Positions 19,470 through 37,224 of a DNA stretch of 64,000 nucleotides are shown one piece after another. How positions within the stretch are numbered: position 1 is the first letter of the stretch; the number at the start of each line of letters is the position of its first letter. Where the stretch lies: assembly GCA_041661385.1 (NCBI GenBank), contig JBAZUP010000001.1, positions 418,560 through 482,559 on the forward strand. Direction: 5' to 3'. This DNA comes from Patescibacteria group bacterium. GTDB lineage: Bacteria > Patescibacteriota > Patescibacteriia > Magasanikbacterales > GWA2-37-8. A program made the translations under genes and the position numbers. The notes under the pieces are model-generated. The model saw nothing but the letters and a program-made list of their open reading frames with translations. It searched no databases and was not told the origin of the DNA.

Positions 19470-19516
19470 AAATATATATTAAAGTAGGCCTAGTATAGCA
19501 AAACCACCCCTCCCCG

Positions 19517-19873: not shown

Positions 19874-19887
19874 AGCAAAATATTTTT

Positions 19888-20283: not shown

Positions 20284-20298
20284 ACTGACATTAAATAA

Positions 20299-20850: not shown

Positions 20851-20863
20851 GCAGTTTGTTAAA

Positions 20864-21106: not shown

Positions 21107-21169
21107 AAATTTCTAAATAAAACTGCTAGAAATATACCATGATTACCCGAATGTGACAAGATATATTAT

Positions 21170-21290: not shown

Positions 21291-21330
21291 AACACAAAAC
21301 AAATACAGACCGTAAGGTCTGTATTTGTTT
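21291..21330. terminator. Perfect 17-bp hairpin terminator downstream of tRNA-Leu
   Basis: caaaacaaatacagacc-gtaa-ggtctgtatttgttttg. Confidence 0.6.
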
Positions 21331-21331
21331 T

Positions 21332-21415
21332 GTGCCCAGGAGAAGATTCGAACTTCCATTCCCTTACGGGAGCTACCACCTCAAGGTAGTGCGTCTACCA
21401 ATTTCGCCACCTGGG
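21332..21415 (-). tRNA. tRNA-Leu (anticodon GAG), class II long variable arm
   Basis: Reverse complement reads GCCCAGG-TG-GCGAAATTGGTAGACGC-A-CTACC-TTGAGGT-GGTAG-(long arm)-GGAAG-TTCGAAT-CTTCC-CCTGGGC-A. The anticodon loop UUGAGGU gives GAG. Confidence 0.8.
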
Positions 21416-21507
21416 CATTATCTAAATTTACTTCAGCTTATGAACCAATTTCGCCCCGCCTGCAATGACTTGCGTCATAGCATGTCGGGCAGGCACCTGG
21501 GCATGAT

Positions 21508-22272
21508 TTAAAATTTACGATCCCGTCCGACTATCATATCAATCTTGCCTTGCGCCAATCTGATCTTCACTTTAATTTCTTTAGTTTTTTTACCATCAGC
21601 CTCCACCACAAACGGTTCTTCACCGGTAATTTCCATTTCTTCGAATGGAAAAATACTTGGATCCTCATAGTTATAGCCGAAGAAGCGGGCTTTTGTCAAG
21701 GGCCGAAGGAACGCTTCTAGCTTACCATCTTGAGGGTGAACGACTTCTAAATCCTTATCTTTTTTGTTTCGTTTCCAAAAAAACGGCTGAAGATTGCATA
21801 CTATGATTTCCATCTTGTCGGACGCGGTAACCTTAAAACGTTCATCATAAGCGACACTAACCTCGGCCGGGTGAACATGCAACTGAGAGATAAAATAACG
21901 GTTGTTTACCCAACCCACGTCTAATCGCTCCTTACGGCGGCGGGACAAAACATCACAAGCCTCCACCCCAACTGGAATACCAAGAACTCCGGCGATGGTG
22001 TTGTTTCCGCCAACCGGCAAGAACCCAAAAGTACACGGAACAGTCGCCGCACGCGATAAAACCTGCCCTAAAGTGGCATCATTCCCTACCACAACAATAG
22101 TTTTTGCTCCTCTTTTTACCTCGTCCTCAATGACAGTTTTCGCATCGGTATAATTATTGATACGCAAAATTTTTCCGGCGATGCCGAAATCGGTTAAACT
22201 AATCTCCATCGCCCTAACTAGCGATGTAAATTTTTTATGACGAAGAAAATTATCGTAGATGTAGACATACAT
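21508..22272 (-). CDS. Diacylglycerol-kinase-catalytic-domain family lipid kinase (YegS/BmrU-like)
   Basis: IVVVGNDATLGQVL corresponds to the GGDGT loop. C-terminal beta-sandwich region. 254 aa. Confidence 0.6.
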   Translation of the reverse strand: MYVYIYDNFLRHKKFTSLVRAMEISLTDFGIAGKILRINNYTDAKTVIEDEVKRGAKTIVVVGNDATLGQVLSRAATVPCTFGFLPVGGNNTIAGVLGIPVGVEACDVLSRRRKERLDVGWVNNRYFISQLHVHPAEVSVAYDERFKVTASDKMEIIVCNLQPFFWKRNKKDKDLEVVHPQDGKLEAFLRPLTKARFFGYNYEDPSIFPFEEMEITGEEPFVVEADGKKTKEIKVKIRLAQGKIDMIVGRDRKF

Positions 22273-22292
22273 AACCGGAAACTGAAAAGTGA

Positions 22293-22775
22293 CTAAGCGA
22301 GCGGAACAACCATTGTTTCATCGGATTTTTTAATTGGCATTCTTGCATTGCGCGCCGCTTTTACCTCCGCTTCTAACCCAGCCATCCAAACCTTGCCGCA
22401 AATAAGCGCGCCAGCTTCTATAATTAAAGTTTTTACTTCGATATCACCAAGCACCTTCGCGGTACCAGTGAGCTCCAAAACTTCTTTTACTTTCATGTTA
22501 CCTTTTACTTCTCCGGCAATTTTGGCACTGCCGGCACGGACGTTGGCCAAAATCTTTGCTCCCTGCTCAACCGAAAGGTGCCGACTGGTATGAACGCTTC
22601 CTGCAACCGAACCTTTTACAATGATATTTCCTTCGGAAGCAAAATCACCTTCAACATTTACCGACGGACCAACTACTGTTTCTACTTCATCATGAGCAGC
22701 AGCAGAAGCTTCGGCGGCGGCGCGATTTAACTCCAAATCGTTATTGGATCTAGTCGGGGTTTTTTGGAAAATCAT
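22293..22775 (-). CDS. Bactofilin (polymer-forming cytoskeletal protein)
   Basis: Repetitive beta-helix segments (VNVEGDFASEGNIIVKGSVAGSV..., GEVKGNMKV..., VLGDIEVKTLIIEAGA) typical of the bactofilin/DUF583 domain. Confidence 0.8.
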   Translation of the reverse strand: MIFQKTPTRSNNDLELNRAAAEASAAAHDEVETVVGPSVNVEGDFASEGNIIVKGSVAGSVHTSRHLSVEQGAKILANVRAGSAKIAGEVKGNMKVKEVLELTGTAKVLGDIEVKTLIIEAGALICGKVWMAGLEAEVKAARNARMPIKKSDETMVVPLA

Positions 22776-22856
22776 ATGTAAAATTAATATTTCTTTATTT
22801 ACTAATTATAACACACCCTTTAAAAAATTAAAAACCTATCTGAGTCAAAAATGTGT

Positions 22857-24482
22857 TCATACTTGGTGAACCGGAATCCAAAAACCAAATTCACTCCCCT
22901 TGCCGAGACCCGGGCTGTGCGCCCAAACTCGGCCGTGATGCGATTCAATAAATTTGGCACAAACGAACAAACCCAAACCAGTTCCATTTACATTCACTCC
23001 TTTTACATTGTTTCCACGGTAAAATTTTTGGAAGAAATTTGCTTCATCGATCTTTTCAAAACCCAAACCTCCATCTTTAACTCTAATCGAAACCCCATCG
23101 CCTTCGCTAATCGCTTCAACTTTTATAACTCCTACATCACAATATTTAATTGCATTGTCTATAAAATTAAATACTACGTGACGAATCTTTTCTTCATCAA
23201 ATATTACTTTGGCCAACTCCGGCGCTCGGTTCCAAACCAAAGTTAAATTCTTTTGTTTGGCTTTAACATCCAGTTCCTTCACAGCGCTATCAATTACATC
23301 ATTTATATCATGCGGGGCAAAATCATATTTTGTCCTACCTTGTTCAAGACGAGTAATATCAAGGAAACTATCTACCAATTTAACTAAGTGACCGTTACTT
23401 TCGTCAATATTTTTATATACTTCAGCCGCTTCTTTGGTAACTCCGCCATAAGCGCCATCTTTCAAAAGCTCAATATAGCCATTGGTAATGGATAATGGGG
23501 TGCGAAGCTGATGCGCGGCAATGGATAAAAAGTCGGTTTTTTGACGGTCTAACTCTTTAAGCTGGATGTTAGCAGTCTGGAGCTGACTGGTAAGTGCCTG
23601 CAGACGCTCACGTTGTTCTACCTCTTTTCGGACGCTTCTTATCAATAATAGCCCCGAGCTTAAAATTAATAAAAATACAAAAAATTTATAAATTCTTATT
23701 ATTAATGTTTCTGCACTAACTACTTCAACTAATACTGGAAATGCTAAAATAAAAACCAAAACTTCCGTTGAAATAATTTTTATATCTAAAAGATGGTATT
23801 TGATAATAGCAAAGGAAGTGAGGAGAATAAATGGAAAATAAAAAACTGATCCATATACTATAAAGTGCGAATTTGAAAAAAGTGCTGGCAACAAAAAATT
23901 AAAGAATATCACTAAAATAAAGGTTATAATAGTTCCAATTAATACGAGAAACAACGCCACACGTTTGCGTTTTTCTTTGGTGGTAATTATTTTTCTTATA
24001 AAAACAATTATACTTGCCAACACAAAACCTGCAGAAAACAAACCAAATAATAAAATTGCCGGTCCGTTTTCAATTTTCGTTATAATACCGTTAGAAGAAA
24101 CTGCTATTGCTCTCTTAAAAACAGCGGGCGTTAAGGTAAGAAGGGAGACCACGACGGTAATTGGAAATAGTAATAATTTATACAATCGAGAAAATTCATA
24201 ATTTGTTTCAGGAAAAACTAAAAAAAACTGGAATAAAAAGTAGACTTGCCATAAAGCAAAAAATATTACAAGTCGCAATACCCACAAACCAATTTCCGGT
24301 ATAAAAACATGATAGCTTAGATAATTGAGCGCACCCCAGATGCTAACCATTATAATAAAAAAGAAAAACGATTTACTGGTAATACTTTTCCGATCGCTCA
24401 AAAAAACAATCGCACCTAAAAGAAGCGATACTAAGACCGTCAAACCTACAGATAACAAATCAAGATTACCTAATATATCCAT
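22857..24482 (-). CDS. Sensor histidine kinase with N-terminal 7TM (7TMR-DISM-like) sensor and C-terminal HisKA+HATPase_c
   Basis: About eight hydrophobic helices, a coiled-coil, H-box LSIAAHQLRTPL, N/G boxes (VFNFIDNAIKY; DGGLGF; GTGLGL). Confidence 0.8.
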   Translation of the reverse strand: MDILGNLDLLSVGLTVLVSLLLGAIVFLSDRKSITSKSFFFFIIMVSIWGALNYLSYHVFIPEIGLWVLRLVIFFALWQVYFLFQFFLVFPETNYEFSRLYKLLLFPITVVVSLLTLTPAVFKRAIAVSSNGIITKIENGPAILLFGLFSAGFVLASIIVFIRKIITTKEKRKRVALFLVLIGTIITFILVIFFNFLLPALFSNSHFIVYGSVFYFPFILLTSFAIIKYHLLDIKIISTEVLVFILAFPVLVEVVSAETLIIRIYKFFVFLLILSSGLLLIRSVRKEVEQRERLQALTSQLQTANIQLKELDRQKTDFLSIAAHQLRTPLSITNGYIELLKDGAYGGVTKEAAEVYKNIDESNGHLVKLVDSFLDITRLEQGRTKYDFAPHDINDVIDSAVKELDVKAKQKNLTLVWNRAPELAKVIFDEEKIRHVVFNFIDNAIKYCDVGVIKVEAISEGDGVSIRVKDGGLGFEKIDEANFFQKFYRGNNVKGVNVNGTGLGLFVCAKFIESHHGRVWAHSPGLGKGSEFGFWIPVHQV

Positions 24483-24488
24483 AATATA

Positions 24489-25559
24489 TTATATGGCTGA
24501 TTCATAAGAAACAGACGGCGCAAGCCGTGAAGACGTAGCGGAGGGCGGACTAGCTTTTCCAACTCTAAGAATAAACAACGTATTTTTTTTACCGGCATCG
24601 CATTGAAAACAAATATCTTGATATGAATCTTTAATCATCTGTTGCTGGCTTACACTAATTTCTTCCGTTGCTTGCCCTTTTACCCGTTGGTATAAAAATA
24701 ACACGCCAGTTATAGGATGTGCAGAAACACCTTCTGCAGTACAGGCAAGCCAGACTCGTTGTAACGACCTACCAAGGGCAATAAAATCCTCTGGAGTGTC
24801 TCTTTCGGACAAAAATGCAACAAATGACGGGCTGGCTTGAAATAATTTGGCATTATCCTCGGCAATTTTTTTGGTAATTCCCAATTTATTAATAATTTTC
24901 ATTATCGGCCAAAAACTGGCAATCCGAAAAGCTATTTCCTGAGGTTTGGGCATTTCTAATGTCTTCACATAGAGTCCACTCTTCTTTTGTTTTTCGTCTT
25001 CTTCCGACCAAATAATATGTTTAAAAAAGAAACTGTGAATTACTTTAGTAGTTAGAACCGTCATTTCATTAGTAACCGAAGCAAGGCTTATTTTTTTTAT
25101 TTTTTTCTCATCGTCTATAAATTTTACTTCAATTCCAAGCTCACTATTGGCACTTAAAATTCTATCTTTTGTTTCGGGAGGAATTGATTCATTCCTATAT
25201 GGAAGCCTGTTGGTCACCCGTTTATCGACATATTTTGCGAAAACATCAGCATTAACCCCAGGATTTGTGACAAAAGTAACAATAGCAATCAACTCATTAT
25301 GACTGCCTTTTGGAAAAAGTTTAATTTGACACTCGTAGCCATTCTCACTAGCTATAATGCAAATATTTTCAAGCAACGCCCCATGCGCAACATGAGAACC
25401 GCATTGCTTGTAATTGTAAAATGGTAAATCTTTTTCTGGGTAATTATAAACAAAAAGGTCATCATTGCTAACCGAAAAATGCCAAGGCTGCGAATTGTCC
25501 CCCGAGGGAGCATAAACAGCTTTTGCTAAAATTTTTTCAATTACCTCCCTACTAATCAT
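24489..25559 (-). CDS. Nitroreductase-superfamily flavoenzyme, two-lobed (SagB/McbC-like dehydrogenase candidate)
   Basis: N-terminal APSGDNSQPWHF (nitroreductase SxxNxQPW motif). 356 aa, about twice a canonical nitroreductase, with a second NTR-like half (SPSFVAFL...LACTAEGVSAHPI). Overlaps the ThiF-like gene by 4 nt. Confidence 0.6.
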   Translation of the reverse strand: MISREVIEKILAKAVYAPSGDNSQPWHFSVSNDDLFVYNYPEKDLPFYNYKQCGSHVAHGALLENICIIASENGYECQIKLFPKGSHNELIAIVTFVTNPGVNADVFAKYVDKRVTNRLPYRNESIPPETKDRILSANSELGIEVKFIDDEKKIKKISLASVTNEMTVLTTKVIHSFFFKHIIWSEEDEKQKKSGLYVKTLEMPKPQEIAFRIASFWPIMKIINKLGITKKIAEDNAKLFQASPSFVAFLSERDTPEDFIALGRSLQRVWLACTAEGVSAHPITGVLFLYQRVKGQATEEISVSQQQMIKDSYQDICFQCDAGKKNTLFILRVGKASPPSATSSRLAPSVSYESAI

Positions 25560-26698
25560 ATACCTATGATTTGAAGAAACTTTTTAGTGTCTTTTAACCG
25601 TCGATTTTTATTTTTAGCATAATCCGCATCCAAAACTGCCTCCAAATTTATTTCGTACCGACCAGATTTGTAATTTTTATAACCATTTACTATATTCCGT
25701 GCCAAAAAAGCCAATGCGGTACCACACAAGTTGGCGGCGGTTCCCAGCTGAGGCCAAGAATATAAAGTTTTACCGACTTCCAAAACTGACTGCTGCATGC
25801 GGGTCGTGGCTATTTCTGCGCCGGCAATCCTAGCGGCAATACGCGGCAACTCACGCGGATCGATCGTTTTTAAATCATTTGATGTAATATTCATAGCTTT
25901 ACCGTTAAAAAGCGCAAGATTTGGTTGCAGGTCATACCGCTCAATGTCGATAAAGATATTGTCACCGTTGTCGGTTGCCATAATTACTGGAATTTTTTTA
26001 ATCTTTGCAATCTCTCGAATTTTAAATTTATAAAAAGGATTGTCCATTTCTTCAATCAATAAGTCTGCTCCTTTTAAGAAACTTTCAATATTTTTTTCGC
26101 TGATACCCTCATCATACAATTCCAACTTAATATATGGGTTTAATTCATATAATTGACGGGCGACCAGATGAGACTTGTCTTCCCCGATATTTTGCACTCC
26201 GGTTCGGACGCGATTAAGATTTGAACCGGACAACACGTCTAAATCAGCAATTTTAAATCTACGAGCACCACCGTTCATGACAATCGTTGAAGCAGCGTGA
26301 CTTCCTACACTCAAGCCAGCCAAAGCAATGGTTGCCTCATAAAATGCCTTCTGCTCTTTCTTGGTTATAAGATTACAATTTCGGCCGGTACGCATTTCAA
26401 AAAAATCTACTTCTTCTAAAACATGAAAAACAACGCTTAGCCATGGGAAGAAAAACCAATTTCCGCATTGCGACAAATCAGTTTGGTTTTTTTTATAATC
26501 ACTCACGAATTTTTCAAAATCTTTTTTATATTCTTTAATAAATCTGAACTTCGGATTTCGCAATAAAAACAAATCCTCAAGCTGAGTCATATATTCGTCC
26601 TTTACAACCAGACCCGGATACTCTTTCTTTATCTCCACTAATTCCTTCTTAAGTGTCTTTTTGTCGAGCTGCCGAGGTTTAATAAAAATATTTTTCAT
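25556..26698 (-). CDS. ThiF/MoeB/E1-like (HesA/MccB/PaaA-type) adenylyltransferase-fold enzyme
   Basis: Rossmann-type nucleotide-binding region ALAGLSVGSHAASTIVMNGGARRFKIADLDVLSGSNLNRV (E1 GxGxxG...D.D...NL.RQ pattern). 380 aa with an N-terminal extension. Confidence 0.7.
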   Translation of the reverse strand: MKNIFIKPRQLDKKTLKKELVEIKKEYPGLVVKDEYMTQLEDLFLLRNPKFRFIKEYKKDFEKFVSDYKKNQTDLSQCGNWFFFPWLSVVFHVLEEVDFFEMRTGRNCNLITKKEQKAFYEATIALAGLSVGSHAASTIVMNGGARRFKIADLDVLSGSNLNRVRTGVQNIGEDKSHLVARQLYELNPYIKLELYDEGISEKNIESFLKGADLLIEEMDNPFYKFKIREIAKIKKIPVIMATDNGDNIFIDIERYDLQPNLALFNGKAMNITSNDLKTIDPRELPRIAARIAGAEIATTRMQQSVLEVGKTLYSWPQLGTAANLCGTALAFLARNIVNGYKNYKSGRYEINLEAVLDADYAKNKNRRLKDTKKFLQIIGI

Positions 26699-26705
26699 AT
26701 ATTAA

Positions 26706-28256
26706 TTATGTCTTTTTTACCCATCGTTGTTTTGTGGCGGCGGCAAAATACGCAGTGTCCCCCTTCAGTCGCAAGTCCAGCTCCGGATGCGCTTTCATCT
26801 TGATGGTTTGGAAAAGGTGGTTATATTCAGAATTCTTTTTTCTAAGCGTCTCAATGATAATTTTTTGAATAAATCCTTCCATTGCTTTGTCGGGCTTGAT
26901 ATTTGTCTGTAATTCAATATGAATTAATAAACGTTGCTGTTGATCTTTTTTTAAATTTACAGTTTCCATTACAAATTTACCCGTACACAATTTACTTAAT
27001 TCCTTTGTTTCTAGTGCCATTTTTATATTTTCAGGATAAATATTCAAACCGTATAGTGTAACAGTAAAATCGGAACGGCCATATAAATACACAAAGGGTA
27101 AATGCCACATGAGTTGTCCGCCAACTAACTCACGTACTTTTTTAATATCATAACCGCCTGCTTTGAGTAATTCAATCATTTTTTCATAACTCAAAATATT
27201 TCCCCGGTCATGAATATTATACTTCAACAGCGGTATTTCTGTATTAAAAGAAGAAAAAATTAGTTCGTCATTTTCAATCTGAATATATTTAAAGAATGGA
27301 TAATACTGATTAAGTGACGGCGCATAACCTTCGCCAAATATTTTTTTACAAAGTTCCGCATTGTTTCCTACAGCTTTTCTTAATAAAATACTAAGCGGTA
27401 CCTCATGCCCCATCAGCGCTGCGTCAGCGGTACCATAAAGATTTACCGACGAGGTATAATAATTTGATTTTTTAATGCCAACTTTTTCATAAATATACGA
27501 TCTGAGGGTCTCACTTAATGATTCAGAAGCAAAAACAAACTTAATAACCTTGCTTTTCCAGTCTATTCCCCGCCTCTCCCCTTCATCCACGATATCTCTA
27601 ACAAAAGGCGGATATCCGCCTATTATTATTTGTTCAAACTCGCCGCCCATTTTTTCAACTATTCTTAAAATTTCTTCCTGGTTAATTCCTGGGGTAATAA
27701 TGGTTAGCGGCAAACCCTTTTGTGCTAAACGCATGCAACAATTTAGTGTAAAGGTGCCACCGATATAAATACCCATCGAAAAACCATTTATAAATAATGT
27801 TTTTCTTTTATTCGCACCAAGTATGTGTTTAATGAAAAACTCATAAAGATACGATGTTTCAGCTTCAACATTAAATGACCTCGGCCAGAAAAATGGTTGC
27901 CCTGATGAGCCTGAACTCGCCGAAATAATCGGCGCTTTCATTTTTCCGTCCCAGCAAAGATCAGATAATTTGTACTTTTTTAAATAATTTTCTTTATCTA
28001 CCCAGGGAACATGTTTAAGATCATCGATTTTTTTTATTTTATGATGATTTATTTTATTCTTCTTTAAGAAATCACGATATGCCGGAACCCTTTCCGCCAT
28101 TTGGTGAAATTGTTTTAAGGCCTTTTCAGCTCCGATTTTTTCATACATCGCCGGGTTATTTTCGGCAAAACCCTCAACTAAAAAATCTGAGTTCGTACTA
28201 AAAAAATCATTTAGACTTAAGCTACTATCGGAAAATAATTTTTTCTGATTAACCAT
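26706..28256 (-). CDS. PaaK / coenzyme F390 synthetase / CapK-like adenylate-forming enzyme
   Basis: ISASSGSSGQPFFWPRS corresponds to the PaaK-family SSGTTG P-loop. 516 aa with an overall ANL-like two-domain layout. Confidence 0.65.
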   Translation of the reverse strand: MVNQKKLFSDSSLSLNDFFSTNSDFLVEGFAENNPAMYEKIGAEKALKQFHQMAERVPAYRDFLKKNKINHHKIKKIDDLKHVPWVDKENYLKKYKLSDLCWDGKMKAPIISASSGSSGQPFFWPRSFNVEAETSYLYEFFIKHILGANKRKTLFINGFSMGIYIGGTFTLNCCMRLAQKGLPLTIITPGINQEEILRIVEKMGGEFEQIIIGGYPPFVRDIVDEGERRGIDWKSKVIKFVFASESLSETLRSYIYEKVGIKKSNYYTSSVNLYGTADAALMGHEVPLSILLRKAVGNNAELCKKIFGEGYAPSLNQYYPFFKYIQIENDELIFSSFNTEIPLLKYNIHDRGNILSYEKMIELLKAGGYDIKKVRELVGGQLMWHLPFVYLYGRSDFTVTLYGLNIYPENIKMALETKELSKLCTGKFVMETVNLKKDQQQRLLIHIELQTNIKPDKAMEGFIQKIIIETLRKKNSEYNHLFQTIKMKAHPELDLRLKGDTAYFAAATKQRWVKKT

Positions 28257-28264
28257 AAAATAAT

Positions 28265-29077
28265 TTACTTTGTGGCAACAGTAATTAACTGTGGCGAATT
28301 ATCATTATACGGACTTCCGTCCCAATCCCCGTAACATGCAACCTCCTTAAAACCAACTCCTTTGCATAAATCTGTAAATTCTTTATCAGTATATAACCTT
28401 ACTGAATATGGTGTAAGTTCTTCTCTTTTACCGTCTTTTGTTATAAGAGTCCATTCACCGTCTTCTCTTTTTGTGGTCGTATTATAGCGGCGTTTTAGCT
28501 CTAATTCTTTACCGGATAAAAGTTTTCGAACCTGAAAATTCAATAGTTCACCACTAACTAACCGCGGTACGGTTACATGCGTATGCATCAAAAATTTACC
28601 ACCCGGCTTCAGAGCCTCAAAAAATTTTCTGGCAACTTCTTCGTTTTCCTTGTCCGAATCAAAAAAACCAAATGAATAAAACATATTAATCACGGCATCG
28701 AATTCATTTCTGAATTTCAGGTGTCGCATGTCATTTTTTATGAAACGACAATTCTCAATCTTTTTCTCAGATCTTTTATCTTCATCTAATTTTAAAAATC
28801 TTTCATTAATATCTGCACCGGTAACATTAAAACCTGCCTCTGCAAGTGCTAGCGAGTGTCTACCGTAACCACAGGGACAATCTAAAATTTTTGCACCCTT
28901 ATTTAACCCACATAATTTTGCCACACCGGAAATTTCATGGGTGGTCCTTAGCTGCAGGTTCAATGGTGAATTAAGATGTCCTTCGACGGAATCATCAGCT
29001 TCCTTATACAAATCTCCAAAAAAACCTCCATCGCTTTCCCACCACTCTGTTTGTTCTGTTTGCATAACTTGACCCAT
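28265..29077 (-). CDS. Class I SAM-dependent methyltransferase
   Basis: ILDCPCGYGRHSLALAEAGFNVTGADI (motif I), FDAVINMF (motif II) and LKPGGKFLM (motif III). Confidence 0.7.
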   Translation of the reverse strand: MGQVMQTEQTEWWESDGGFFGDLYKEADDSVEGHLNSPLNLQLRTTHEISGVAKLCGLNKGAKILDCPCGYGRHSLALAEAGFNVTGADINERFLKLDEDKRSEKKIENCRFIKNDMRHLKFRNEFDAVINMFYSFGFFDSDKENEEVARKFFEALKPGGKFLMHTHVTVPRLVSGELLNFQVRKLLSGKELELKRRYNTTTKREDGEWTLITKDGKREELTPYSVRLYTDKEFTDLCKGVGFKEVACYGDWDGSPYNDNSPQLITVATK

Positions 29078-29128
29078 ATATCTCTTTTTATTAATAAATA
29101 TTTTTAAAAATTATAAACTAAACAAGAT

Positions 29129-30214
29129 TTATTTACTGGTGACTTTTTCATATTCGACATTTCTGTTTAAAAAAGCATTAGCAATAATAAGAGCTTCTTT
29201 TTCAAGTGTACTTCCCGAACTTTTACTTTTTTTCAAAATTAGATCTAGACTTTTGGGAATTTTTTTAAGATCATTCAAAATCCTTTCTTCGTTTGGATTT
29301 TCATTTATATACTGATCTACCACACTCACGATACCACCCGAATTGGCCAAATAGTCCGGAACATACAAAATACCCAATTGATTTAATTTTTCTGCGATTT
29401 CCGGACTTGCTAATTGGTTATTTGCTGACCCGACCACTGCTCGACATTTTAATTCACTAACAGATTTTTCATTTAAAACACCACTAAGTGCCGAAGGGGA
29501 AAAAATATCAACTTCTTGTTTGTGAATCTCCTCTGCCCCAACCACCTTAAGAAATGGAAACTCGGCTAAAATTTTCTTTATTTTTACATCATCAATATCG
29601 GAAATAATTATATTTTTTACATTACTCTTTATTAAAAGCCTTAGTAATTCAGAACCTGTTTTACCAATTCCTTGAATTGCAAAACTGCGTTCCTTTACCT
29701 CACTTGTTCCAAATATTGATGATAATACCGACTCAATACAATATTTAACACCGATTGCCGTGTAGTAACCCGAGTTTACACCCATTCCAATAATAAATTG
29801 ACTTGCTTTACGTAAAATATCTAAATCATCATTACTCACACCTACATCCGTACCAGTGACAAATTTACCATTTAATTCATTTACCTGTTTGGCGTATGTG
29901 GTAAAGAATTTGTTCCGGTCTTTAATTCCGTCTTTTGGTAATACCAGAGCGGCCTTCGCACCGCCGAAGGGCATGCCGGCCAAGGCTGATTTATATGACA
30001 TTAATTTTGACAAACGCAACGCATCGCGCAAGGCTTCTTCATCGGTAGCGTATCTCCACAACCGGGTTGCACCAAGTGAAGGAAAACCATTATTGAGACG
30101 GTGGATTGCAATATATCCCTTCAAGCCAACGGACTCATCTTCAACTAAATAGACACCATAGTTCTCGTCGTACTCTTCAAATTTTTCCAAATACGATTTA
30201 TCTAAAATTTTCAT
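29129..30214 (-). CDS. Glu/Leu/Phe/Val dehydrogenase family amino-acid dehydrogenase (leucine-dehydrogenase-like)
   Basis: PFGGAKAALVL (catalytic Lys region) and a C-terminal NAD Rossmann fold (GIGKTGSEL...). 361 aa. Confidence 0.75.
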   Translation of the reverse strand: MKILDKSYLEKFEEYDENYGVYLVEDESVGLKGYIAIHRLNNGFPSLGATRLWRYATDEEALRDALRLSKLMSYKSALAGMPFGGAKAALVLPKDGIKDRNKFFTTYAKQVNELNGKFVTGTDVGVSNDDLDILRKASQFIIGMGVNSGYYTAIGVKYCIESVLSSIFGTSEVKERSFAIQGIGKTGSELLRLLIKSNVKNIIISDIDDVKIKKILAEFPFLKVVGAEEIHKQEVDIFSPSALSGVLNEKSVSELKCRAVVGSANNQLASPEIAEKLNQLGILYVPDYLANSGGIVSVVDQYINENPNEERILNDLKKIPKSLDLILKKSKSSGSTLEKEALIIANAFLNRNVEYEKVTSK

Positions 30215-30217
30215 ACT

Positions 30218-31927
30218 TTACATTTCTTCGACAGTTTCAATAGTTAAAATTGCTAACATGTTTTTCAAAACCTGGCGCACCGCCTGAGAAAGAACCAAGC
30301 GCGCCGAAGATAATTCTTTTGATTCCGCGCCGACAACTTTGTGCTTATTATAGAAGTTATTATAGGCCTGCGCAAGTTCAAAGACATAGCGCGCGATGGC
30401 TGAAGGATTATAATTTTCCAGTGCTTTTTCAATCACGGTCTCAACCTCCCCCATCATCAAAACCAAAGCCTTTTCTTCGGGGGCAACCAAAGCGCCAAAT
30501 TCCTTTCCGGCGGATATTTTTTCTTTTTTAGCTTTCGCTTCCAAACTATTGATACGGGCGATGGTATATAAAATATACGGCCCGCTAAAACCTTCAAACG
30601 AAGTTGCTTCTTTTAGATCAAAAACTGTATTCTTTACCGCTTCATGTTTTTGCATATCGAATTTCAGCGCTGCCTGAGTTAATATATTTGATGTCGCAAT
30701 GATTTTTTTCTTGGCCCAATCGGCATGGCGCTGTTTTGTTTCTTCAACTATTAGATCAAAAATTTGATCTCGTAAACTTTCATATAAAATCACATTGCCG
30801 CTACGTGAGGACATTTTGCCCTCCGGCAAATTTACGAGCCCATAGCTGAGGTGGGTTAACTTTTGCTTAAACCCAATCAATTCCAAGATTTTATAAAGTT
30901 GTTTGAAATAAAACTTTTGCTCTTCACCGGTGATAACAATACTCTCGTCTACCGGATATTTACTAAATTTTTGTTCGGCCAAAGGAATATCACTGGTTAA
31001 ATAAAGACCGACGCCGTTTGATTTGCGTAAAAGCGCTATATCCAAATTATATTCCGACAAATCCACGATAATCGCACCGCCCTCACCAACTTTCGCTATT
31101 CCTTTTTTTAAAAGCTCATCTACTCTAGCCTGTCCCATTGCTTTAATATCTTTTTCATAAAAAACCGCCATGTGCTTTACCCCGAGCTCTTCAAATAATT
31201 CATCAAACTTGTCGATACTCCATTTTCTGGTCTTGATAAACAGCGGCCAGATTTTTTTATCATTTGCTTCCAATTGTTTTTGTATTTCTTGAACTTCAAC
31301 TTCGCATTCCTGATGATCTTTTAAATAATGGCTCGCTTCGGCGTAAATTTCGCCCAGCCATTTCTGCTTATTGGCAGGGGCTTTTTCATCACCGTGAAAT
31401 TTTTTGAGTCCCCAAAGACATTTGGCGACATGCGAACCAAAATCATTTAAATAATTCACCGGATAAACCTTAACACCAGTTTTTTCATATAACTTAACCA
31501 ATGTATTGCCGATACAGACATTCCGAAAATGACCAATATGAAACTCTTTGTGAGTATTATTGGATGGGTACTCGATCATCACTTTTTTACCTTTGCCAAT
31601 TTCGGTTGAACCAAAATCATCGGTATTTTTTATTACTGATTTGATAACAAAGTTTGCAACCTGTGAAGAATTTAAGAAAAAATTTACATAAGGACCAAAG
31701 GCGGCAACTTTTTCAACTGTTGAATCAGGTTTTAATACACTGGAAATTTTGCTTGCGAGTTCAGTTGCTACCTCGTTTGGTTTTTTACCGGCTACTTTGG
31801 CAATATTAAAACAAGCAAACGCTACGTCACCCATTTCTGGTTTTGGCGGTACTGAAAAAGCCGCAGGATTATCCACCCCGGCTTGTTTTAACAGCTTCTC
31901 AATTTCCTCCTGAATCCCTCGTAGCAT
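30218..31927 (-). CDS. argS: Arginine--tRNA ligase
   Basis: Class I HIGH motif (FHIGHFRN). ArgRS N-terminal Add-1 and C-terminal DALR anticodon-binding regions. 569 aa. Confidence 0.9.
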   Translation of the reverse strand: MLRGIQEEIEKLLKQAGVDNPAAFSVPPKPEMGDVAFACFNIAKVAGKKPNEVATELASKISSVLKPDSTVEKVAAFGPYVNFFLNSSQVANFVIKSVIKNTDDFGSTEIGKGKKVMIEYPSNNTHKEFHIGHFRNVCIGNTLVKLYEKTGVKVYPVNYLNDFGSHVAKCLWGLKKFHGDEKAPANKQKWLGEIYAEASHYLKDHQECEVEVQEIQKQLEANDKKIWPLFIKTRKWSIDKFDELFEELGVKHMAVFYEKDIKAMGQARVDELLKKGIAKVGEGGAIIVDLSEYNLDIALLRKSNGVGLYLTSDIPLAEQKFSKYPVDESIVITGEEQKFYFKQLYKILELIGFKQKLTHLSYGLVNLPEGKMSSRSGNVILYESLRDQIFDLIVEETKQRHADWAKKKIIATSNILTQAALKFDMQKHEAVKNTVFDLKEATSFEGFSGPYILYTIARINSLEAKAKKEKISAGKEFGALVAPEEKALVLMMGEVETVIEKALENYNPSAIARYVFELAQAYNNFYNKHKVVGAESKELSSARLVLSQAVRQVLKNMLAILTIETVEEM

Positions 31928-31975
31928 AGCTTAAAATGTATCTAAATTATAACATTTTCACTGGGGATTGTCACT

Positions 31976-32004
31976 CTTGACTCCCGTCTTGGGGTTTGAT
32001 ATGC
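31976..32004 (+). promoter_or_regulatory. Sigma-70-type promoter of a plus-strand sRNA
   Basis: TTGACT (31976-31981), 17-nt spacer, TATGCT (31999-32004). Confidence 0.45.
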
Positions 32005-32010
32005 TTTTGA

Positions 32011-32232
32011 GGCAATACCCCCTACCAAAAGAAGTCAGCACGGCCGGAATAAGGTTGTGCCCATTAGATCGTTGAGGATACTCACCCCCCGCAGGGCAGC
32101 TTTGATTGCCCTATCTTCACCTCCTATTTGGGACCCAATCAACCTAATTCATTTCATGAAAGCCGACTTCTCCTTGGTAGGGGGCAGTCTAACTATAAAC
32201 CCCCACGACTAATAATCGTGGGGGATTTTTTT
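32011..32232 (+). ncRNA. Candidate ~220-nt structured sRNA (family not identified; 6S-like closing-stem architecture)
   Basis: Begins just after the promoter. A long-range helix pairs ccccctaccaaaagaagtc (32017-32035) with gacttctccttggtaggggg (32164-32183), enclosing internal hairpins. Ends in terminator aaacccccacgactaataatcgtgggggattttttt (32197-32232). No ORF. Both flanking genes are on the opposite strand. Confidence 0.35.
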
Positions 32233-32263
32233 ATAAAAAATTAAAAAAAATGGGAAAAAAATA

Positions 32264-32295
32264 ACCCGGACGATTGTCCGGATTCTTTTTCCTTC
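32264..32295 (-). terminator. tyrS terminator
   Basis: Minus-strand hairpin ccggacaatcgtccgg followed by a U-run. Confidence 0.5.
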
Positions 32296-32355
32296 CTTGC
32301 TAATATTATAGCACATTATGCTTTTATCATTTAGCTGCGGGTGTGGATAAGTATC

Positions 32356-33549
32356 CTATTTAACTTTTACAAAAAATCTTTTTCCTTTTTGTATCACATT
32401 ACCTTTTTTTACTTTTGCATCAATCGATTCAACTTTTACATCATCAATTTTTACGCCGCCTTGTTCAACCGCACGGCGCGCGTCGGATTTACTAAGCGAA
32501 AGACCGCTTTCAACCAATACCGTGAGCAAATCGTAAGCAGTCGGTTTTATTTCTAGAATATCGGCAGGTTTTTCTTTGTCTTGAATAACGCTGGAAAAAT
32601 GATCCTGTCCTTTTTTAGCCGCCACCTCACCCAAAAATGTTTTGGTAATCTCAAAGGCCAATCGCAATTTTAAATCACGCGGATTTACGCCTTTCTTAAG
32701 CTCTGTTTTCAATTCTTTTATTTCTTCGGTCGGCACTTTGGTGCAAAGTTCGAAACCGTTCATTATAATTCCATCACCCCAACGCATTACCCGGCCAAAC
32801 ATATCTTCCGGAGTATCGGCGAACGCAATCATATTACCTTCGCTCTTGCCCATTTTTTTACCGCTTTCATCAGCAAGAAGTTTTGTCGTCAAAACAAATT
32901 TTTCTTTTTTCTTTAAATCTTTCATGAGGTCGCGGCCGGCGAGCATATTAAATGTTTGATCATTGCCGCCAATTTCACCATCTACATCCATGGCGACACT
33001 GTCGTAACCCTGAACCAAGGGGTACATAAATTCATGCAAATATATTGGCTTTTGTTCCGTCATTCTTTTTTCAAACATGTCGCGTTCGAGCATGCGTTGA
33101 ACGGTAAAATGCGAGGAAAGCTCGAGGACATCTTCAAAAGAAAGCTTGTTGTTCCAGGTGCTATTATATTTTATTTCCGCCGGATTTTCACCGCCAAAAT
33201 CTAAAATTGTCGATGCTTGAGCCTTATAATTCCGACTATTTTCTTTTACCTGTTCCGTAGTTAATTTTTGTCTCACTGCTGTTTTATCGGTTGGGTCGCC
33301 AATCATGCCGGTAAAATCACCGATTAAAAATATTACTTTATGGCCTAATTCCTGGAATTGGCTTAGTTTTAACATTTGGATTCCATTTCCAATGTGGAGG
33401 GTCGGAGCGGTTGGGTCAAAACCACAATACAAAGTAAGCTGCTTGCCGGATTTAAGCGCTTTTTCTAGAAACTCGCGGGTCGGGTAAACCGCTTCCACTC
33501 CCCGAGTCAGCAACTCCTCAATTTTTTTTGCATCAGTATTTACCTTCAT
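32356..33549 (-). CDS. tyrS: Tyrosine--tRNA ligase
   Basis: HIGH-like (TLHIGN) and KMSKS-like (KMGKS) motifs. C-terminal S4 domain. 397 aa. Confidence 0.85.
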   Translation of the reverse strand: MKVNTDAKKIEELLTRGVEAVYPTREFLEKALKSGKQLTLYCGFDPTAPTLHIGNGIQMLKLSQFQELGHKVIFLIGDFTGMIGDPTDKTAVRQKLTTEQVKENSRNYKAQASTILDFGGENPAEIKYNSTWNNKLSFEDVLELSSHFTVQRMLERDMFEKRMTEQKPIYLHEFMYPLVQGYDSVAMDVDGEIGGNDQTFNMLAGRDLMKDLKKKEKFVLTTKLLADESGKKMGKSEGNMIAFADTPEDMFGRVMRWGDGIIMNGFELCTKVPTEEIKELKTELKKGVNPRDLKLRLAFEITKTFLGEVAAKKGQDHFSSVIQDKEKPADILEIKPTAYDLLTVLVESGLSLSKSDARRAVEQGGVKIDDVKVESIDAKVKKGNVIQKGKRFFVKVK

Positions 33550-33572
33550 ATTCTTACAATTAAATAAATTGC

Positions 33573-34488
33573 TTATTCAACTACTAAATTTATGTATCTT
33601 GCATGTCTCCTCAAATCTCTAAAGACCTCTTGCTCAATTTGTCTAATACGTTCTTTATTAAGATTCAAAATATCCCCAATCTCACTTAAGATATGCTCGT
33701 GTTTAAAATCTTCCTCTTTTATATCGCTTAGCTTTTTATATTTGTCTCTAAAAAATTTGATATTTATTATTATCTGTATTAAATTCAAAAAAATCATAAC
33801 CTAAACCAAGCCTTAAAGTAATCACTAAAACTTTTTCTACTGACAAACTTTTTAAATATGGAGTTAAATATTTCTCAACAATTTCCTTATTATACAACAC
33901 TTCAATTAAATCTTTCTCATGGTCAACCGTTGATTCATCAATAATATCTAATTGCTTCTTATAATTAGTGCTTGTTTTTTGATTATCGAGTGGACTTTCT
34001 TCCTCTGGAGCATTACGACCGGAAGGACCAAATTCACCGTTATAACTCATGCTTATAACTTTGCCCCGTCTGGATTGAGTTAAAAATTTTGTTAAAACTC
34101 TTTGAAAATCCTGCTCAAGATGCAAACCTAAATATGAGCTAAATTTTGCCCCTCGATCTTTTTCCCATTTTGAATATATTTTGAGCAGCCGAATATTTCC
34201 TTCAGAAATTAGATCTTGTCGTAATTGTTCTTTGTCTATTCCTTGTTCATTTAAAACTTTTGATGCTAAATTTGAACCTAAACATTTATCGGCTATAAAT
34301 GCAATAAAATAATGCATCCTGAGCACAAGCTTGCTTTCTAGCTCCTCCTTTTGCTTTCCGCTTACAGTTATTAATTTCTCAATAATATTTTCAGCTTCAC
34401 TTTCACTAAGCTCAATCGACCCTTCATCAAGGTTGTCTTTCGCTACTTTACTGATTAGGTTTGGGTTATGCTGCCTAAATTCTCCCAT
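33573..34488 (-). pseudogene. Sigma-70 family RNA polymerase sigma factor interrupted by a 1-nt frameshift in an A6/T6 homopolymer (two ORFs 33748..34488 and 33573..33797)
   Basis: The upstream ORF carries region 2 (LISEGNIRLLKIYSKWEKDRGAKFSSYLGLHLEQDFQRVL) and region 3/4.1 (VLVITLRLGLGYD). The downstream ORF carries region 4.2 (EHILSEIGDILNLNKERIRQIEQEVFRDLRR). Removing one A from the run at 33749-33754 joins them in frame (..KYQIF-RDKYKKLSDIKEEDFKHEHILSEIG..). Confidence 0.6.
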
Positions 34489-34491
34489 AAA

Positions 34492-37224
34492 TTAATTTAA
34501 AGATTTTAATTGTGCTTCAAATTTTAACAATTTATCTTTTACTTCCAGTAACTTAGCTTTTTCTTTTTCTACTACGACCGCAGGCGCGCGGGAAACAAAA
34601 TCAGCGTTGCTAAGCTTCGCTTCAAGGCCGGTGATATATTTTGTAACCGAATCAATTTCATCTTTCAAGCGCTTTGTTTCTTTCCCCTTATCAACCACAC
34701 CTTCAAAATCAACCGCAATCTCCATACCACCGGCCAAAAAGACTTTTTTACCATTATGATTTTCCATTTTTTCAGTTATGACTAGTTTTTCTAAACGCGC
34801 TAATTTCTCAATGATTCCGGCATTTTCAATGACCAATTTCTGATTTTTTTCCGGAACAATGACTGCCGATAGTAATTTAACAGCATCAATTTTATTTTCA
34901 CTGCGCCAAGACCGGATCGCGGTAACAACATTTTTTATTATTTCAAATTGAACCGCAGAATCAAATTTTTTCCTGCCAACTTTTGGCCATTTTTCAACCA
35001 TTAACAGCGCGTCACTTTCATATACTTCTTCCCAAATAGTTTCGGTAACAAATGGCATGAACGGATGCCAAAGTTTTAAAACAGTATTCAATAAATAATT
35101 TAAAACTAAAGACTTGCCGCCTTCAATTTTCGCAATTTCCAAATACCAATCGGCGAGCTCGCCCCAAGTAAAGTCACGCAAAATTTCACCGGCCATTGAA
35201 TAATTATAATTTTCAATTTGCGCCGTAACATCTTTGATTACATTTTGCATTTTTTCTAGAATCCAGGCATCGGCATCTGTTTTTGGCGCCGGCATCTTGA
35301 TGTCCTCGGACGGTTTTTCAATATTAATTAGCATGAAGCGAGAAATATTCCAAAGCTTGTTGGTAAAATTTCTGAAACCGGCAATTTTTTCTTCGGACAA
35401 CTTGAGATCAATACCTGGCGTACTGCCCAGCACCAAAGAAAGTCGGGTCGCATCGGTACCAAACTTCTCAATCATATCAAGCGGGTTGATTACATTTCCG
35501 AGACTTTTACTCATTTTTCTGCCTTGCTCATCACGCACTAAACCATGCAAATAAACCGTCTCAAATGGAATACAACCAAGCGTATAGGTAGTCATGAGAA
35601 TCATTCTCGCCACCCAGAAAAACAAAATATCATGACCGGTTTCCAAAACAGAAGTCGGATGAAAATTTTCTAAATCCCCATTTTCATCTGGCCAGCCTAA
35701 AGTTGAAAAAGTCCAAAGCCCGGAAGAAAACCAAGTATCGAGCGTATCTTTATCTTGCACCCAACCCTCGCCTTCCGGCGCATTTATTCCACAATATATT
35801 TCTTCTTTGCGATACCAAACCGGCACCTGATGACCATACCAAATTTGCCGGCTGATGTTCCAGGGTCGTAAATTATCAATCCAATGGAAATATGTTTTTT
35901 CGAATTGATTCGGGATAATCGTGATCTGTTTACTATTAACCACCTTTTGCATCAATTCTTTTAAAGTTACAGATGCTCCAGATTTTACACCTTTAATTTT
36001 TGATTCCTTTAGCTTAAACTTTTTATTTACATCAATAAACCATTGTAATTTTGGCAATGGTTCTACAATGTCGTTAAATCGATCGGAAGTACCAATATTT
36101 TGAATAATATCTTCTTCTTTTTCGAGCAATTTATGAACGCGGAGATTTTCTAAAATAACGGCCCGAGCTTTCTCAACTTCTAAATCGGAATAGGCCCCGG
36201 CCCGATGAGTCATTTTTCCATCTTCACCGATAACTTGAATCAAATCAATCGGGTTGCCGGCGGCTTTTTGTTTTTCATACATGGCAAAGTCAACGGCGCT
36301 GTGAGCCGGCGTTACGCCAAGCGCGCCAGTACCATAATTCATGTCGATACCGTCGTCGGCAATAATTTTTACCTTAATTTTTTCTCCGACAAATTCCAAA
36401 TCATAGGTTTTTCCAATAAATTGTTTGTAGCGCTTATCATCGGGGTGAACTGCAACCGCGGTATCGCCAAGCTTAGTTTCGGGCCGAGTGGTCGCAATCG
36501 TAATTGGAAAATCCTTAGAATATTTAAAATAATATAATTTTCCCGGGCGTTCGACATAAACCAATTCATCGTCGCTACAGGTAGATTGCCCTTTTACCGA
36601 CCAATTTATAACTCTAAACCCCCGGTAAATAAGCCCATCATCAAACATTTTTTTAAATACCGCTCGGACGGCGCGATTTCGCTGATCATCTAAAGTAAAG
36701 GCTTCTCGGCTCCAATCTAAACTCGCGCCCATTTTTTTACATTGATTTACAATTGTATCATGCGACTCTTTGGCAAATTTTCTCACTTCATTAAGAAATG
36801 CTTCTCTTCCCATTTCTTGTTTCGGTTTTGCCATTTTCTTTTCTTTAATCAAAATGCTTTCAACTTTTGATTCCGTAGCTATCGCGGCATGATCGGTTCC
36901 GGGTATCCAAAGCGTGCGATCACCCTTCATGCGATGATAGCGCACCATAATATCTTCAATCGCGAGCATGGCAGCATGACCCATGTGCAGGGTTCCGGTA
37001 ACATTTGGCGGAGGTAAGACAATTGAAAAATATGACGCATCTTTTTCGGTTACGCCAGCCTTAACACAAACATCCGGATTAAAAAAACCGCTTTCTTCCC
37101 AGCGTTTCCCGATTTTTTCTTCGTAATTCTTGGCTTCAAAAGCCTTTGGCAGATCCTTCATATTACTCTTTATATATACCGGTCTAATAGGTAATAGTGT
37201 ACTGAAAAATGGCCAAAATGGCAA
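34492..37224 (-). CDS. valS: Valine--tRNA ligase
   Basis: HIGH (TLHMGHA), KMSKS (KMSKSLGN), an editing domain and a C-terminal coiled-coil. 910 aa. Confidence 0.9.
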   Translation of the reverse strand: MPFWPFFSTLLPIRPVYIKSNMKDLPKAFEAKNYEEKIGKRWEESGFFNPDVCVKAGVTEKDASYFSIVLPPPNVTGTLHMGHAAMLAIEDIMVRYHRMKGDRTLWIPGTDHAAIATESKVESILIKEKKMAKPKQEMGREAFLNEVRKFAKESHDTIVNQCKKMGASLDWSREAFTLDDQRNRAVRAVFKKMFDDGLIYRGFRVINWSVKGQSTCSDDELVYVERPGKLYYFKYSKDFPITIATTRPETKLGDTAVAVHPDDKRYKQFIGKTYDLEFVGEKIKVKIIADDGIDMNYGTGALGVTPAHSAVDFAMYEKQKAAGNPIDLIQVIGEDGKMTHRAGAYSDLEVEKARAVILENLRVHKLLEKEEDIIQNIGTSDRFNDIVEPLPKLQWFIDVNKKFKLKESKIKGVKSGASVTLKELMQKVVNSKQITIIPNQFEKTYFHWIDNLRPWNISRQIWYGHQVPVWYRKEEIYCGINAPEGEGWVQDKDTLDTWFSSGLWTFSTLGWPDENGDLENFHPTSVLETGHDILFFWVARMILMTTYTLGCIPFETVYLHGLVRDEQGRKMSKSLGNVINPLDMIEKFGTDATRLSLVLGSTPGIDLKLSEEKIAGFRNFTNKLWNISRFMLINIEKPSEDIKMPAPKTDADAWILEKMQNVIKDVTAQIENYNYSMAGEILRDFTWGELADWYLEIAKIEGGKSLVLNYLLNTVLKLWHPFMPFVTETIWEEVYESDALLMVEKWPKVGRKKFDSAVQFEIIKNVVTAIRSWRSENKIDAVKLLSAVIVPEKNQKLVIENAGIIEKLARLEKLVITEKMENHNGKKVFLAGGMEIAVDFEGVVDKGKETKRLKDEIDSVTKYITGLEAKLSNADFVSRAPAVVVEKEKAKLLEVKDKLLKFEAQLKSLN

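What the first reader, a model, noticed from the sequence alone, without database searches (positions are those of the whole stretch)
31976..32232. Promoter-to-terminator delimited ~220-nt structured non-coding RNA between argS and tyrS
It has a good -35/-10 (TTGACT-17-TATGCT) and a strong intrinsic terminator. A 19-bp long-range closing helix encloses internal hairpins. It has no coding potential and is antisense to nothing, since both neighbours are on the other strand. The architecture (long closing stem with enclosed loops) is reminiscent of 6S RNA, but I could not match conserved motifs of 6S, RNase P, tmRNA or SRP RNA.
Basis: seen in the sequence. Interest (0 to 1): 0.55.

Follow-up and report, generated by a model that had tools for sequence, protein, structure and literature searches.

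The report
Orphan structured small-RNA gene candidate
A promoter-to-terminator cassette for a rod-shaped RNA sits between two tRNA-synthetase genes of one groundwater Magasanikbacteria genome only; it is not the cell's 6S RNA, which lies elsewhere, and it may be a recent insertion.

Summary
Window 31977-32232 (+) has a TG-extended promoter (TTGACT-17-TATGCT), a ~190-nt stretch that folds into an interrupted rod (z -4.5 to -5.3) and a strong U7 terminator. It lies between argS and tyrS, both on the minus strand.

The 6S reading does not hold. Rfam gives nothing at the locus. The lineage's real 6S-like RNA is at window 18638-18771 (-). It occurs once each in 64 of 121 related genomes, and 29 of its 35 pairs covary. 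Its model does not touch the candidate.

SRP RNA is excluded: this genome and 120 other Patescibacteria show no Ffh, FtsY or SRP RNA, as already published for CPR bacteria.

The candidate has no homologue in any collection searched: 120 relatives by covariance model, 400 class genomes by BLAST, 80 argS loci, phages and plasmids. The three same-genus genomes lack it. It is a ~280-bp species-specific insertion between the argS promoter and a small conserved upstream element. Covariation could not be tested, and no RNA run was listed.

One metagenome carries a minor allele with 6 substitutions within 69 nt of the RNA, inside otherwise identical flanks.

Best reading: an orphan, recently acquired small-RNA gene of uncertain function.

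The parts
31975..32253 (.). Species-specific insertion of about 280 bp, boundaries +/- 5 nt. It carries the whole cassette.
   Evidence: In same-genus genome G002 the argS -35 complement TTGTCAC is followed directly by GAAAAAAATAACCCGG. In the window these two landmarks are at 31968-31974 and 32254-32269. G001 and G003 also lack the insert.
31977..32005 (+). Sigma-70-type promoter TTGACT-17-TATGCT with TG at 31997-31998. It stands back to back with the argS promoter GTGACA-17-TATAAT (31974-31946, minus strand).
   Evidence: and the sequence.
32011..32198 (+). Predicted RNA body. It is an interrupted rod of 57 pairs. The transcription start (~32011-32013) is inferred from the -10 position.
   Evidence: MFE -63.5, z -4.47; three inverted repeats in register.
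32018..32036 (+). 5' arm of the closing helix (11 bp + 7 bp).
   Evidence: I4, I8.
32165..32184 (+). 3' arm of the closing helix.
32080..32092 (+). C-rich 13-nt bulge ACUCACCCCCCGC, predicted single-stranded (mean unpaired probability 0.89).
32093..32112 (+). Apical hairpin: 7-bp stem, loop CUUUGA.
32117..32125 (+). UCACCUCCU, a 9-mer identical to the 3' end of this genome's 16S rRNA (the anti-Shine-Dalgarno stretch). Mean unpaired probability 0.47.
   Evidence: The 9-mer occurs 7 times in 1.09 Mb counting both strands.
32200..32232 (+). Intrinsic terminator: 9-bp stem followed by U7. On the minus strand the tail is only UUUAUAGUU.
32084..32152 (.). Stretch that carries 6 substitutions in a minor allele of run X2. 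The first and last positions are inferred from 30-nt unitig overlaps.
   Evidence: table 8, records 8-11.

Best explanation
The element is a self-contained, species-specific small-RNA gene on the plus strand. It consists of a sigma-70-type promoter, a ~190-nt rod-shaped non-coding RNA and an intrinsic terminator. It entered the argS-tyrS spacer of this Magasanikbacteria lineage as a ~280-bp insertion.

It is none of the housekeeping RNAs (6S, SRP, RNase P, tmRNA).

Inferred, not shown: if it is functional, it most likely acts in trans by base pairing. Its exposed pyrimidine-rich segments are the C-rich 13-nt bulge and the UCACCUCCU stretch that copies the 16S anti-Shine-Dalgarno sequence. These could bind purine-rich, ribosome-binding-site-like stretches of mRNAs and block translation initiation, in the manner of C-rich-loop sRNAs.

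Shown: the sequence anatomy, the lack of coding signal, the lack of any detectable relative, and that this is an insertion.

Inferred: transcription, strand, targets.
For: 1. Promoter and terminator bracket the fold within 6-10 nt on either side.

2. The terminator has a U7 tail on the plus strand only. No other plus-strand gene lies upstream for it to serve, since argS runs the other way.

3. The fold is far better than shuffles: z -4.5 to -5.3, and 0 of 200 shuffles fold as well.

4. There is no coding signal. The 70-aa frame has 0 hits in 1.84e9 proteins and no Pfam match.

5. The housekeeping RNAs are accounted for elsewhere: RNase P, tmRNA and a 6S-like RNA at 18638-18771 (-). SRP is absent from the phylum sample.

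6. The insertion is delimited against three same-genus genomes.

7. The C-rich bulge is predicted unpaired at 0.89, and a 9-mer is identical to the 16S 3' end.

8. The major allele is identical in contigs of two groundwater studies. Both may be the source of the assembly, so this is not independent support.
Against: 1. No homologue was found in any collection searched. Only the genome itself matched in blastn of 61 genomes. The single-sequence model R1 gave no real hit in 120 relatives; the best was 13.1 bits at E 0.7. It gave none in 80 argS loci or in the three same-genus genomes. Only short chance or terminator matches appeared in 400 class genomes. So there is no conservation and no covariation.

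2. No RNA data exist for either strand.

3. The minus strand folds better: -73.8 against -63.5 kcal/mol, with 9 G-U pairs against 4. An imperfect DNA palindrome would give the same z-scores.

4. Promoter-like sites are not enriched over shuffles.

5. No clear target emerged. Complements of the bulge of 9 nt or more are scattered. No Hfq or CsrA motif was seen, though only by a crude regular-expression search.

6. In a crude genome-wide ranking of intergenic folds the locus is 41st of 234. tmRNA and RNase P rank lower, so the measure has little power.
Confidence: 0.4

Rival explanations
1. A non-functional insertion relic. An imperfect palindrome, such as a remnant of mobile or foreign DNA, landed in a spacer that tolerates insertions. 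The promoter-like site is incidental, and any transcript has no role.
For: The element is absent from all relatives, including the same genus. The same spacer holds other lineage-specific inserts in G001 and G003 (a GC-rich 106-aa reverse ORF) and in L019. Both strands fold equally well or better. Promoter-like sites are not above chance. G+C is ~49-51%, against 40% for the genome. Dense local variation between otherwise identical strains suggests weak constraint or imported sequence.
Against: There is a single copy in the genome. No target-site duplication was seen by eye. There is no match in phage, plasmid or viral collections. A relic does not explain a strong terminator that is U-tailed on the plus strand only and placed exactly after the fold, with a promoter exactly before it.
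Confidence: 0.3
2. A second, 6S-type RNA: a decoy that mimics an open promoter and binds RNA polymerase holoenzyme alongside the lineage's main 6S-like RNA. This would parallel the two 6S RNAs of Bacillus subtilis (recalled, not from a call).
For: The geometry fits. There is a ~21-bp closing stem and a weakly paired central region of about 15 nt on the 5' side and 19 nt on the 3' side. The 3' strand of that region can form a small hairpin. A ~28-bp terminal arm follows, and the total is ~190 nt.
Against: RF00013 gives no hit even at E<=10 with lax filters or in the genome search. The lineage's 6S-like model R2, run with filters off, does not report the locus at E<=10. The nhmmer profile does not report it at E<=100. 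The element is not conserved, whereas the 6S-like RNA is found in 64 of 121 genomes by the same kind of search.
Confidence: 0.1
3. The functional strand is the minus strand. The fold would then be part of a long leader or read-through transcript, running from the small conserved promoter at 32305-32315 (-) towards argS.
For: The minus strand is 10 kcal/mol more stable. It turns A-C mismatches of the plus strand into G-U pairs, which lengthens the closing helix to 14 + 10 pairs. The orientation is the same as argS.
Against: Two terminator hairpins precede the fold on the minus strand. The first (32284-32263) is strong, with a T7 tail. argS has its own conserved promoter downstream of the fold. 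No T-box or other leader family matches on the minus strand. Relatives express argS without the element.
Confidence: 0.1
4. A small protein gene: the 51-aa GTG frame at 32057-32212, or the 18-aa ATG frame nested in it.
For: An open frame exists.
Against: There are 0 homologues among 1.84e9 representatives and no Pfam match. No well-spaced ribosome-binding site is visible in the sequence. The frame ends inside the terminator stem.
Confidence: 0.03

Closest known systems
6S RNA (Rfam RF00013), and the 6S-like RNA of this lineage at window 18638-18771 (-)
   Same: About 190 nt, with its own promoter and terminator. It is rod-like, with a closing stem, a loosely paired middle and a terminal arm.
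   Different: It matches neither RF00013 nor the lineage model R2. It lacks the lineage's conserved motifs as read: the ACUAUUCUA bubble strand, the CCCGUGGG hairpin and ACCACCUA. It is not conserved.
C-rich-loop base-pairing sRNAs such as RsaE/RoxS (RF01820)
   Same: Promoter-to-terminator unit with exposed C-rich single-stranded segments that could pair with G-rich ribosome-binding sites.
   Different: The only Rfam signal is a sub-threshold match on the opposite strand (32196-32293, 38.4 bits against a gathering score of 79), made of the two terminator hairpins. The candidate is twice as long, and no targets are shown.
Miniature inverted-repeat elements / palindromic insertion relics
   Same: An inserted segment bounded by inverted repeats. 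It is absent from relatives and has a G+C content unlike the genome.
   Different: It is single-copy, no target-site duplication was seen, and it carries a promoter and a one-sided terminator.

Membership tests
6S RNA (RF00013) | Scores with the family covariance model | tested here: not met
   No RF00013 row among 37 matches at E<=10 on 31850-32400. No match in the whole genome at E<=10. The model is insensitive: it rings in only 5-7 of 14 control genomes.
6S RNA (RF00013) | Closing stem, large open central bubble, terminal stem | tested here: inconclusive
   The MFE is an interrupted rod. Its middle (32038-32051 and 32146-32162) is only half unpaired, at 0.44 and 0.53.
6S RNA (RF00013) | Conserved among relatives with covarying helices | tested here: not met
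   No homologue found.
6S RNA (RF00013) | Binds sigma-70 holoenzyme and templates product RNA | not testable with these tools
   Needs biochemistry.
   With filters off on 15000-35000, 18638-18771 (-) scores 122.8 bits and the candidate is not listed at E<=10. nhmmer at E<=100 lists nothing in 31976-32232.
SRP RNA (RF00169, RF01854) | Scores with a family model | tested here: not met
SRP RNA (RF00169, RF01854) | Partner protein Ffh encoded in the genome | tested here: not met
   TIGR00959 has no match. No DTAGR or SRP-type P-loop frame is present. PF00448 matches 0 of 121 phylum genomes at E<=1e-10. This agrees with PMC4508563 (passages read).
RNase P RNA / tmRNA | Scores with the family model; slot not already filled | tested here: not met
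   Both are found elsewhere: C1:528740-529137 at 176.4 bits and C1:316330-316724 at 132.6 bits. Nothing is found at the locus.
T-box leader of argS (minus strand) | Scores with RF00230 upstream of the aminoacyl-tRNA synthetase gene | tested here: not met
   No T-box row at E<=10 on either strand.
Y RNA / YrlA | Ro (TROVE) protein in the genome; tRNA-like module | tested here: not met
   PF05731 has no match. ARAGORN finds nothing in 31800-32400.
Miniature inverted-repeat element | Terminal inverted repeats | tested here: met
   Arms of 11/11 and 9/10. The same repeats also form the RNA helix.
Miniature inverted-repeat element | Several copies per genome; target-site duplication | tested here: not met
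   The genome has one copy by blastn (word size 7) and by nhmmer. No flanking direct repeat was found (0 direct-repeat families; by eye).

The most novel reading that the evidence does not exclude
The cassette is a horizontally exchanged, self-contained RNA gene whose apical half is a fast-changing specificity region. Two otherwise identical strains differ at 6 positions within 69 nt of it. It could therefore be a guide-like or decoy RNA under diversifying selection, for example in conflict with phage or a host, rather than a conventional regulator.
Probability: 0.1. Interest if true: 0.65.

Novelty: new member of a known kind. Interest (0 to 1): 0.3.

Why it matters
Almost nothing is known about regulatory RNAs in CPR/Patescibacteria. 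If the element is real, it is a lineage-restricted sRNA gene caught soon after acquisition, with strain-level variation confined to its apical half.

The check also has practical value. It shows that a 6S-like shape is not enough to call 6S. It also locates the true 6S-like RNA of Magasanikbacteria, which Rfam's 6S model misses.

As it stands the candidate lacks any evidence of expression or conservation, so it is a modest lead.

Tried and rejected
Rfam. The gathering scan of the whole window gave only an L10 leader and two tRNAs. The lax scan of 31850-32400 gave only terminator-driven sub-threshold rows.

Homologue searches that found nothing real:
- blastn against 60 relatives.
- blastn with word size 7 against 1.2 kb upstream of argS in 39 genome loci: three chance hits at E 4.3.
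- Single-sequence model R1 against 120 relatives, run with the tool's stricter filters.
- R1 against 80 argS loci plus the window.
- blastn against 400 class genomes: 48 genomes with matches of 44 nt or less. Three were inspected and lie in unrelated coding sequence.
- Phages and plasmids.
- Three exact patterns in viral contigs.

Closest relatives. The argS-based scans of genome and metagenome contigs returned nothing closer than 71% protein identity. Records near the window's own genome may be left out by those tools.

Expression. No RNA holder was listed. Only DNA contigs could be laid.

SRP RNA was considered because no SRP RNA was found in the genome. It was rejected once Ffh and FtsY proved absent and the literature confirmed this for CPR.

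A genome-wide ranking of intergenic folds had no discriminating power.

Pairing between the candidate and the neighbouring tiny RNA is not better than shuffles: 88 of 300 shuffles are as good.

The search for targets of the C-rich bulge was inconclusive.

A DGR template/variable repeat pair was considered because of the variable patch. It was rejected because no second copy exists in the genome.

Supplements of the cited papers were not seen. Those of PMC4508563 may list which genomes were checked for ffh and ffs.

Full report
WHAT IS THERE

The window is G000:C1:418560-482559 of a 1.09-Mb genome with 40% G+C in 8 contigs, rated 97.7% complete. argS relatives carry record titles of Candidatus Magasanikbacteria and Patescibacteria MAGs from groundwater and similar sites.

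argS (30218-31927) and tyrS (32356-33549) both lie on the minus strand. This leaves a 428-nt spacer between them.

On the plus strand of the spacer, the scan finds TTGACT-17-TATGCT at 31977-32005, with a TG one base before the -10. It also finds a terminator stem at 32200-32224 followed by seven T.

Between promoter and terminator, 32011-32198 folds into an interrupted rod of 57 pairs. Its energy is -63.5 kcal/mol, z -4.47, and 0 of 200 shuffles fold as well. With the terminator included the figures are -82.5 kcal/mol and z -5.27.

Three inverted repeats in register underlie the rod: 11/11, 9/10 and 10/11.

- Promoter-like sites are no more frequent here than in shuffles (2 against 1.7).
- The minus strand folds better: -73.8 kcal/mol, with 9 G-U pairs against 4.

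I still favour the plus strand. The terminator has a U7 tail only on that strand. Nothing else on the plus strand needs a terminator there. On the minus strand two hairpins would precede the fold, and argS has its own conserved promoter after it.

NOT A KNOWN RNA

Rfam 15 at gathering thresholds reports only an L10 leader and two tRNAs in the window. With lax filters at E<=10, the 37 rows on 31850-32400 are terminator-driven. The best is RsaE on the opposite strand, at 38.4 bits against a gathering score of 79. No row is for 6S, SRP, RNase P, tmRNA or T-box. ARAGORN finds nothing.

In the whole genome:
- RNase P RNA is at C1:528740-529137 (176.4 bits).
- tmRNA is at C1:316330-316724 (132.6 bits).
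- 6S (RF00013) and SRP RNA (RF00169, RF01854) are not found.

SRP IS EXCLUDED

The genome has no Ffh (TIGR00959) and no FtsY (TIGR00064; only three matches at E>=0.016). It has no reading frame with the SRP-GTPase motifs.

PF00448 gives only short P-loop matches in 9 of 41 order-level genomes, with E between 3e-5 and 8e-4. It gives 0 of 121 genomes drawn from the phylum at E<=1e-10, while ringing in 14 of 14 control genomes. RF00169 gives 0 of 41 and 0 of 121.

This is already in print:
- Nelson and Stegen 2015 (PMC4508563; abstract passage and one section passage read) state that neither ffh nor ffs was detected in any Parcubacteria genome.
- Moreira et al. 2021 (PMC8080830; one passage read) say that SRP subunits are absent from many CPR bacteria.

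THE REAL 6S-LIKE RNA IS ELSEWHERE IN THE SAME WINDOW

A sub-threshold RF00013 hit in relative G042 (28.6 bits, E 2.6e-4) led to a similar RNA in G005 next to ndk. From there it led to window 18638-18771 (-), just downstream of ndk (18870-19469, -).

Read from the sequence, this RNA has:
- a promoter, TTGACA-16-TATACT;
- a two-way terminator at about 18603-18635.

Its fold scores z -6.5.

blastn finds it in 10 further genomes at E<=0.05 (11 of 61 including the window's own). Seven of those matches are strong.

A covariance model (R2), built from six sequences, finds exactly one copy in 64 of 121 related genomes. In the window's own family it finds one in 49 of 72.

I aligned 34 members. These were the 30 best loci plus L056, L058, L104 and L106, out of the 64 hits. 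On that alignment:
- 91.5% of cells pair, against 28-49% when partners are slid.
- 29 of 35 pairs change on both sides.
- 0 of 500 shuffles reach any of the five measures.
The alignment was fitted to the model, which leans towards its structure.

The architecture is the 6S one: a closing stem, a long single-stranded 5' bubble strand, a terminal hairpin and a small 3' hairpin.

I rate this family as the lineage's 6S at about 70%. Only the G042 member touches RF00013, and function is untested.

Neither R2 with filters off nor an nhmmer profile at E<=100 reports the candidate.

NO RELATIVES OF THE CANDIDATE, AND AN INSERTION

The same kinds of search that recover the 6S-like RNA recover nothing for the candidate:
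- blastn of 61 genomes hits only the genome itself.
- Model R1 against 121 genomes gives self plus one 13.1-bit chance hit.
- R1 against 80 argS loci from genome and metagenome contigs gives nothing.
- blastn against 401 class genomes gives only matches of 44 nt or less. Most fall in the terminator. Three were inspected and are unrelated.
- Phages, plasmids and viral contigs give nothing.
- The genome has one copy.

Comparison with the three same-genus genomes shows why. In them the argS promoter is followed directly by a small conserved element. In the window about 280 bp (31975-32253) are inserted between the two. The insert holds the promoter, the fold, the terminator and an A/T-rich tail.

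No target-site duplication is visible.

The spacer takes other inserts in relatives: a GC-rich reverse 106-aa frame in G001 and G003, and an ArfB-like frame in L019.

NOT CODING

The 70-aa open frame has no Pfam match and 0 hits among 1.84 billion protein representatives.

STRAIN VARIATION

No RNA run was listed. DNA contigs of two studies hold the locus.

In X1 one contig covers 30000-33331 with no difference.

In X2 the assembly splits exactly inside the RNA:
- A 10,692-nt contig ends at 32083.
- Two alternative 129-nt records cover 32054-32182. One has depth 12.4 and no difference. The other has depth 4.6 and 6 other letters, without gaps.
- A 1,179-nt record goes on from 32153.

The 30-nt overlaps fit a bubble of 31-letter words. 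By inference, the six substitutions therefore lie between 32084 and 32152. Both alleles share identical flanks.

Six changes in 69 nt, against none in the flanks, is not uniform drift. It points to import of a diverged allele or to local fast change.

MECHANISM

Shown:
- the anatomy;
- the non-coding nature;
- the insertion;
- that this is none of the housekeeping RNAs.

Inferred:
- It is transcribed from the plus strand.
- If functional, it pairs through its exposed pyrimidine-rich parts with purine-rich mRNA sites. Those parts are the C-rich bulge at 32080-32092 (unpaired probability 0.89) and UCACCUCCU at 32117-32125. The 9-mer is identical to the 16S 3' end at C2:137516 and has 7 copies in the genome.

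This mechanism is weakly supported, and no specific target stood out.

The main rival, at about 0.3, is a functionless palindromic insertion relic.

VERDICT

The structure is real, the 6S label is wrong, and conservation fails. The candidate is best treated as an orphan small-RNA gene awaiting transcript data.

Noticed in passing
window 18638-18771 (-), with promoter ~18775-18802 and terminator ~18603-18635: A 6S-like RNA of the Magasanikbacteria lineage, next to ndk, which Rfam's RF00013 misses. On 34 aligned members, 29 of 35 pairs have compensatory changes. Only the G042 member touches RF00013 (28.6 bits). One literature search pairing '6S RNA' with 'Patescibacteria' listed a single, unrelated paper.
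   Followed up: yes
window 32253-32350 (-); also L015, L016, L017, L018, L019 upstream of argS: A small conserved unit just upstream of the argS promoter. It has a DnaA-box-like TTATCCACA, then an extended -10 (TGTGCTATAAT), a purine-rich AAGGAAGG(GG)AAA stretch, a hairpin and a T run. This would give a ~45-nt transcript. A motif search found it in 8 of 64 argS loci with enough upstream sequence, which is 5 species; the window's own copy was read by eye. Function unknown.
   Followed up: partly
whole genome G000 and 120 genomes of the phylum: No Ffh, FtsY or SRP RNA was detected. This is already published for CPR bacteria (PMC4508563 and PMC8080830; passages read).
   Followed up: yes
window 32054-32182 in run X2: An assembly bubble with a minor allele (depth 4.6 against 12.4) that carries 6 substitutions, inside flanks shared by both alleles. 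The positions were not listed.
   Followed up: partly
L015 3192-4000 and L016 3148-4000 (G003, G001): A GC-rich insert of about 650 nt with a 106-aa frame on the opposite strand, lying between tyrS and the small conserved element. It shows that this spacer takes foreign inserts in several species.
   Followed up: no
G000:C1 about 581600-582600 (outside the window): A markedly GC-rich stretch with no clear long frame, met while looking for SRP GTPase motifs.
   Followed up: no
window 2948-3111 (= C1:421507-421670); also C1:626125-626314 and C1:122072-122235: These intergenic stretches have the most negative GC-corrected folding energy in the genome-wide scan. They may be further structured RNAs or terminator clusters.
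   Followed up: no
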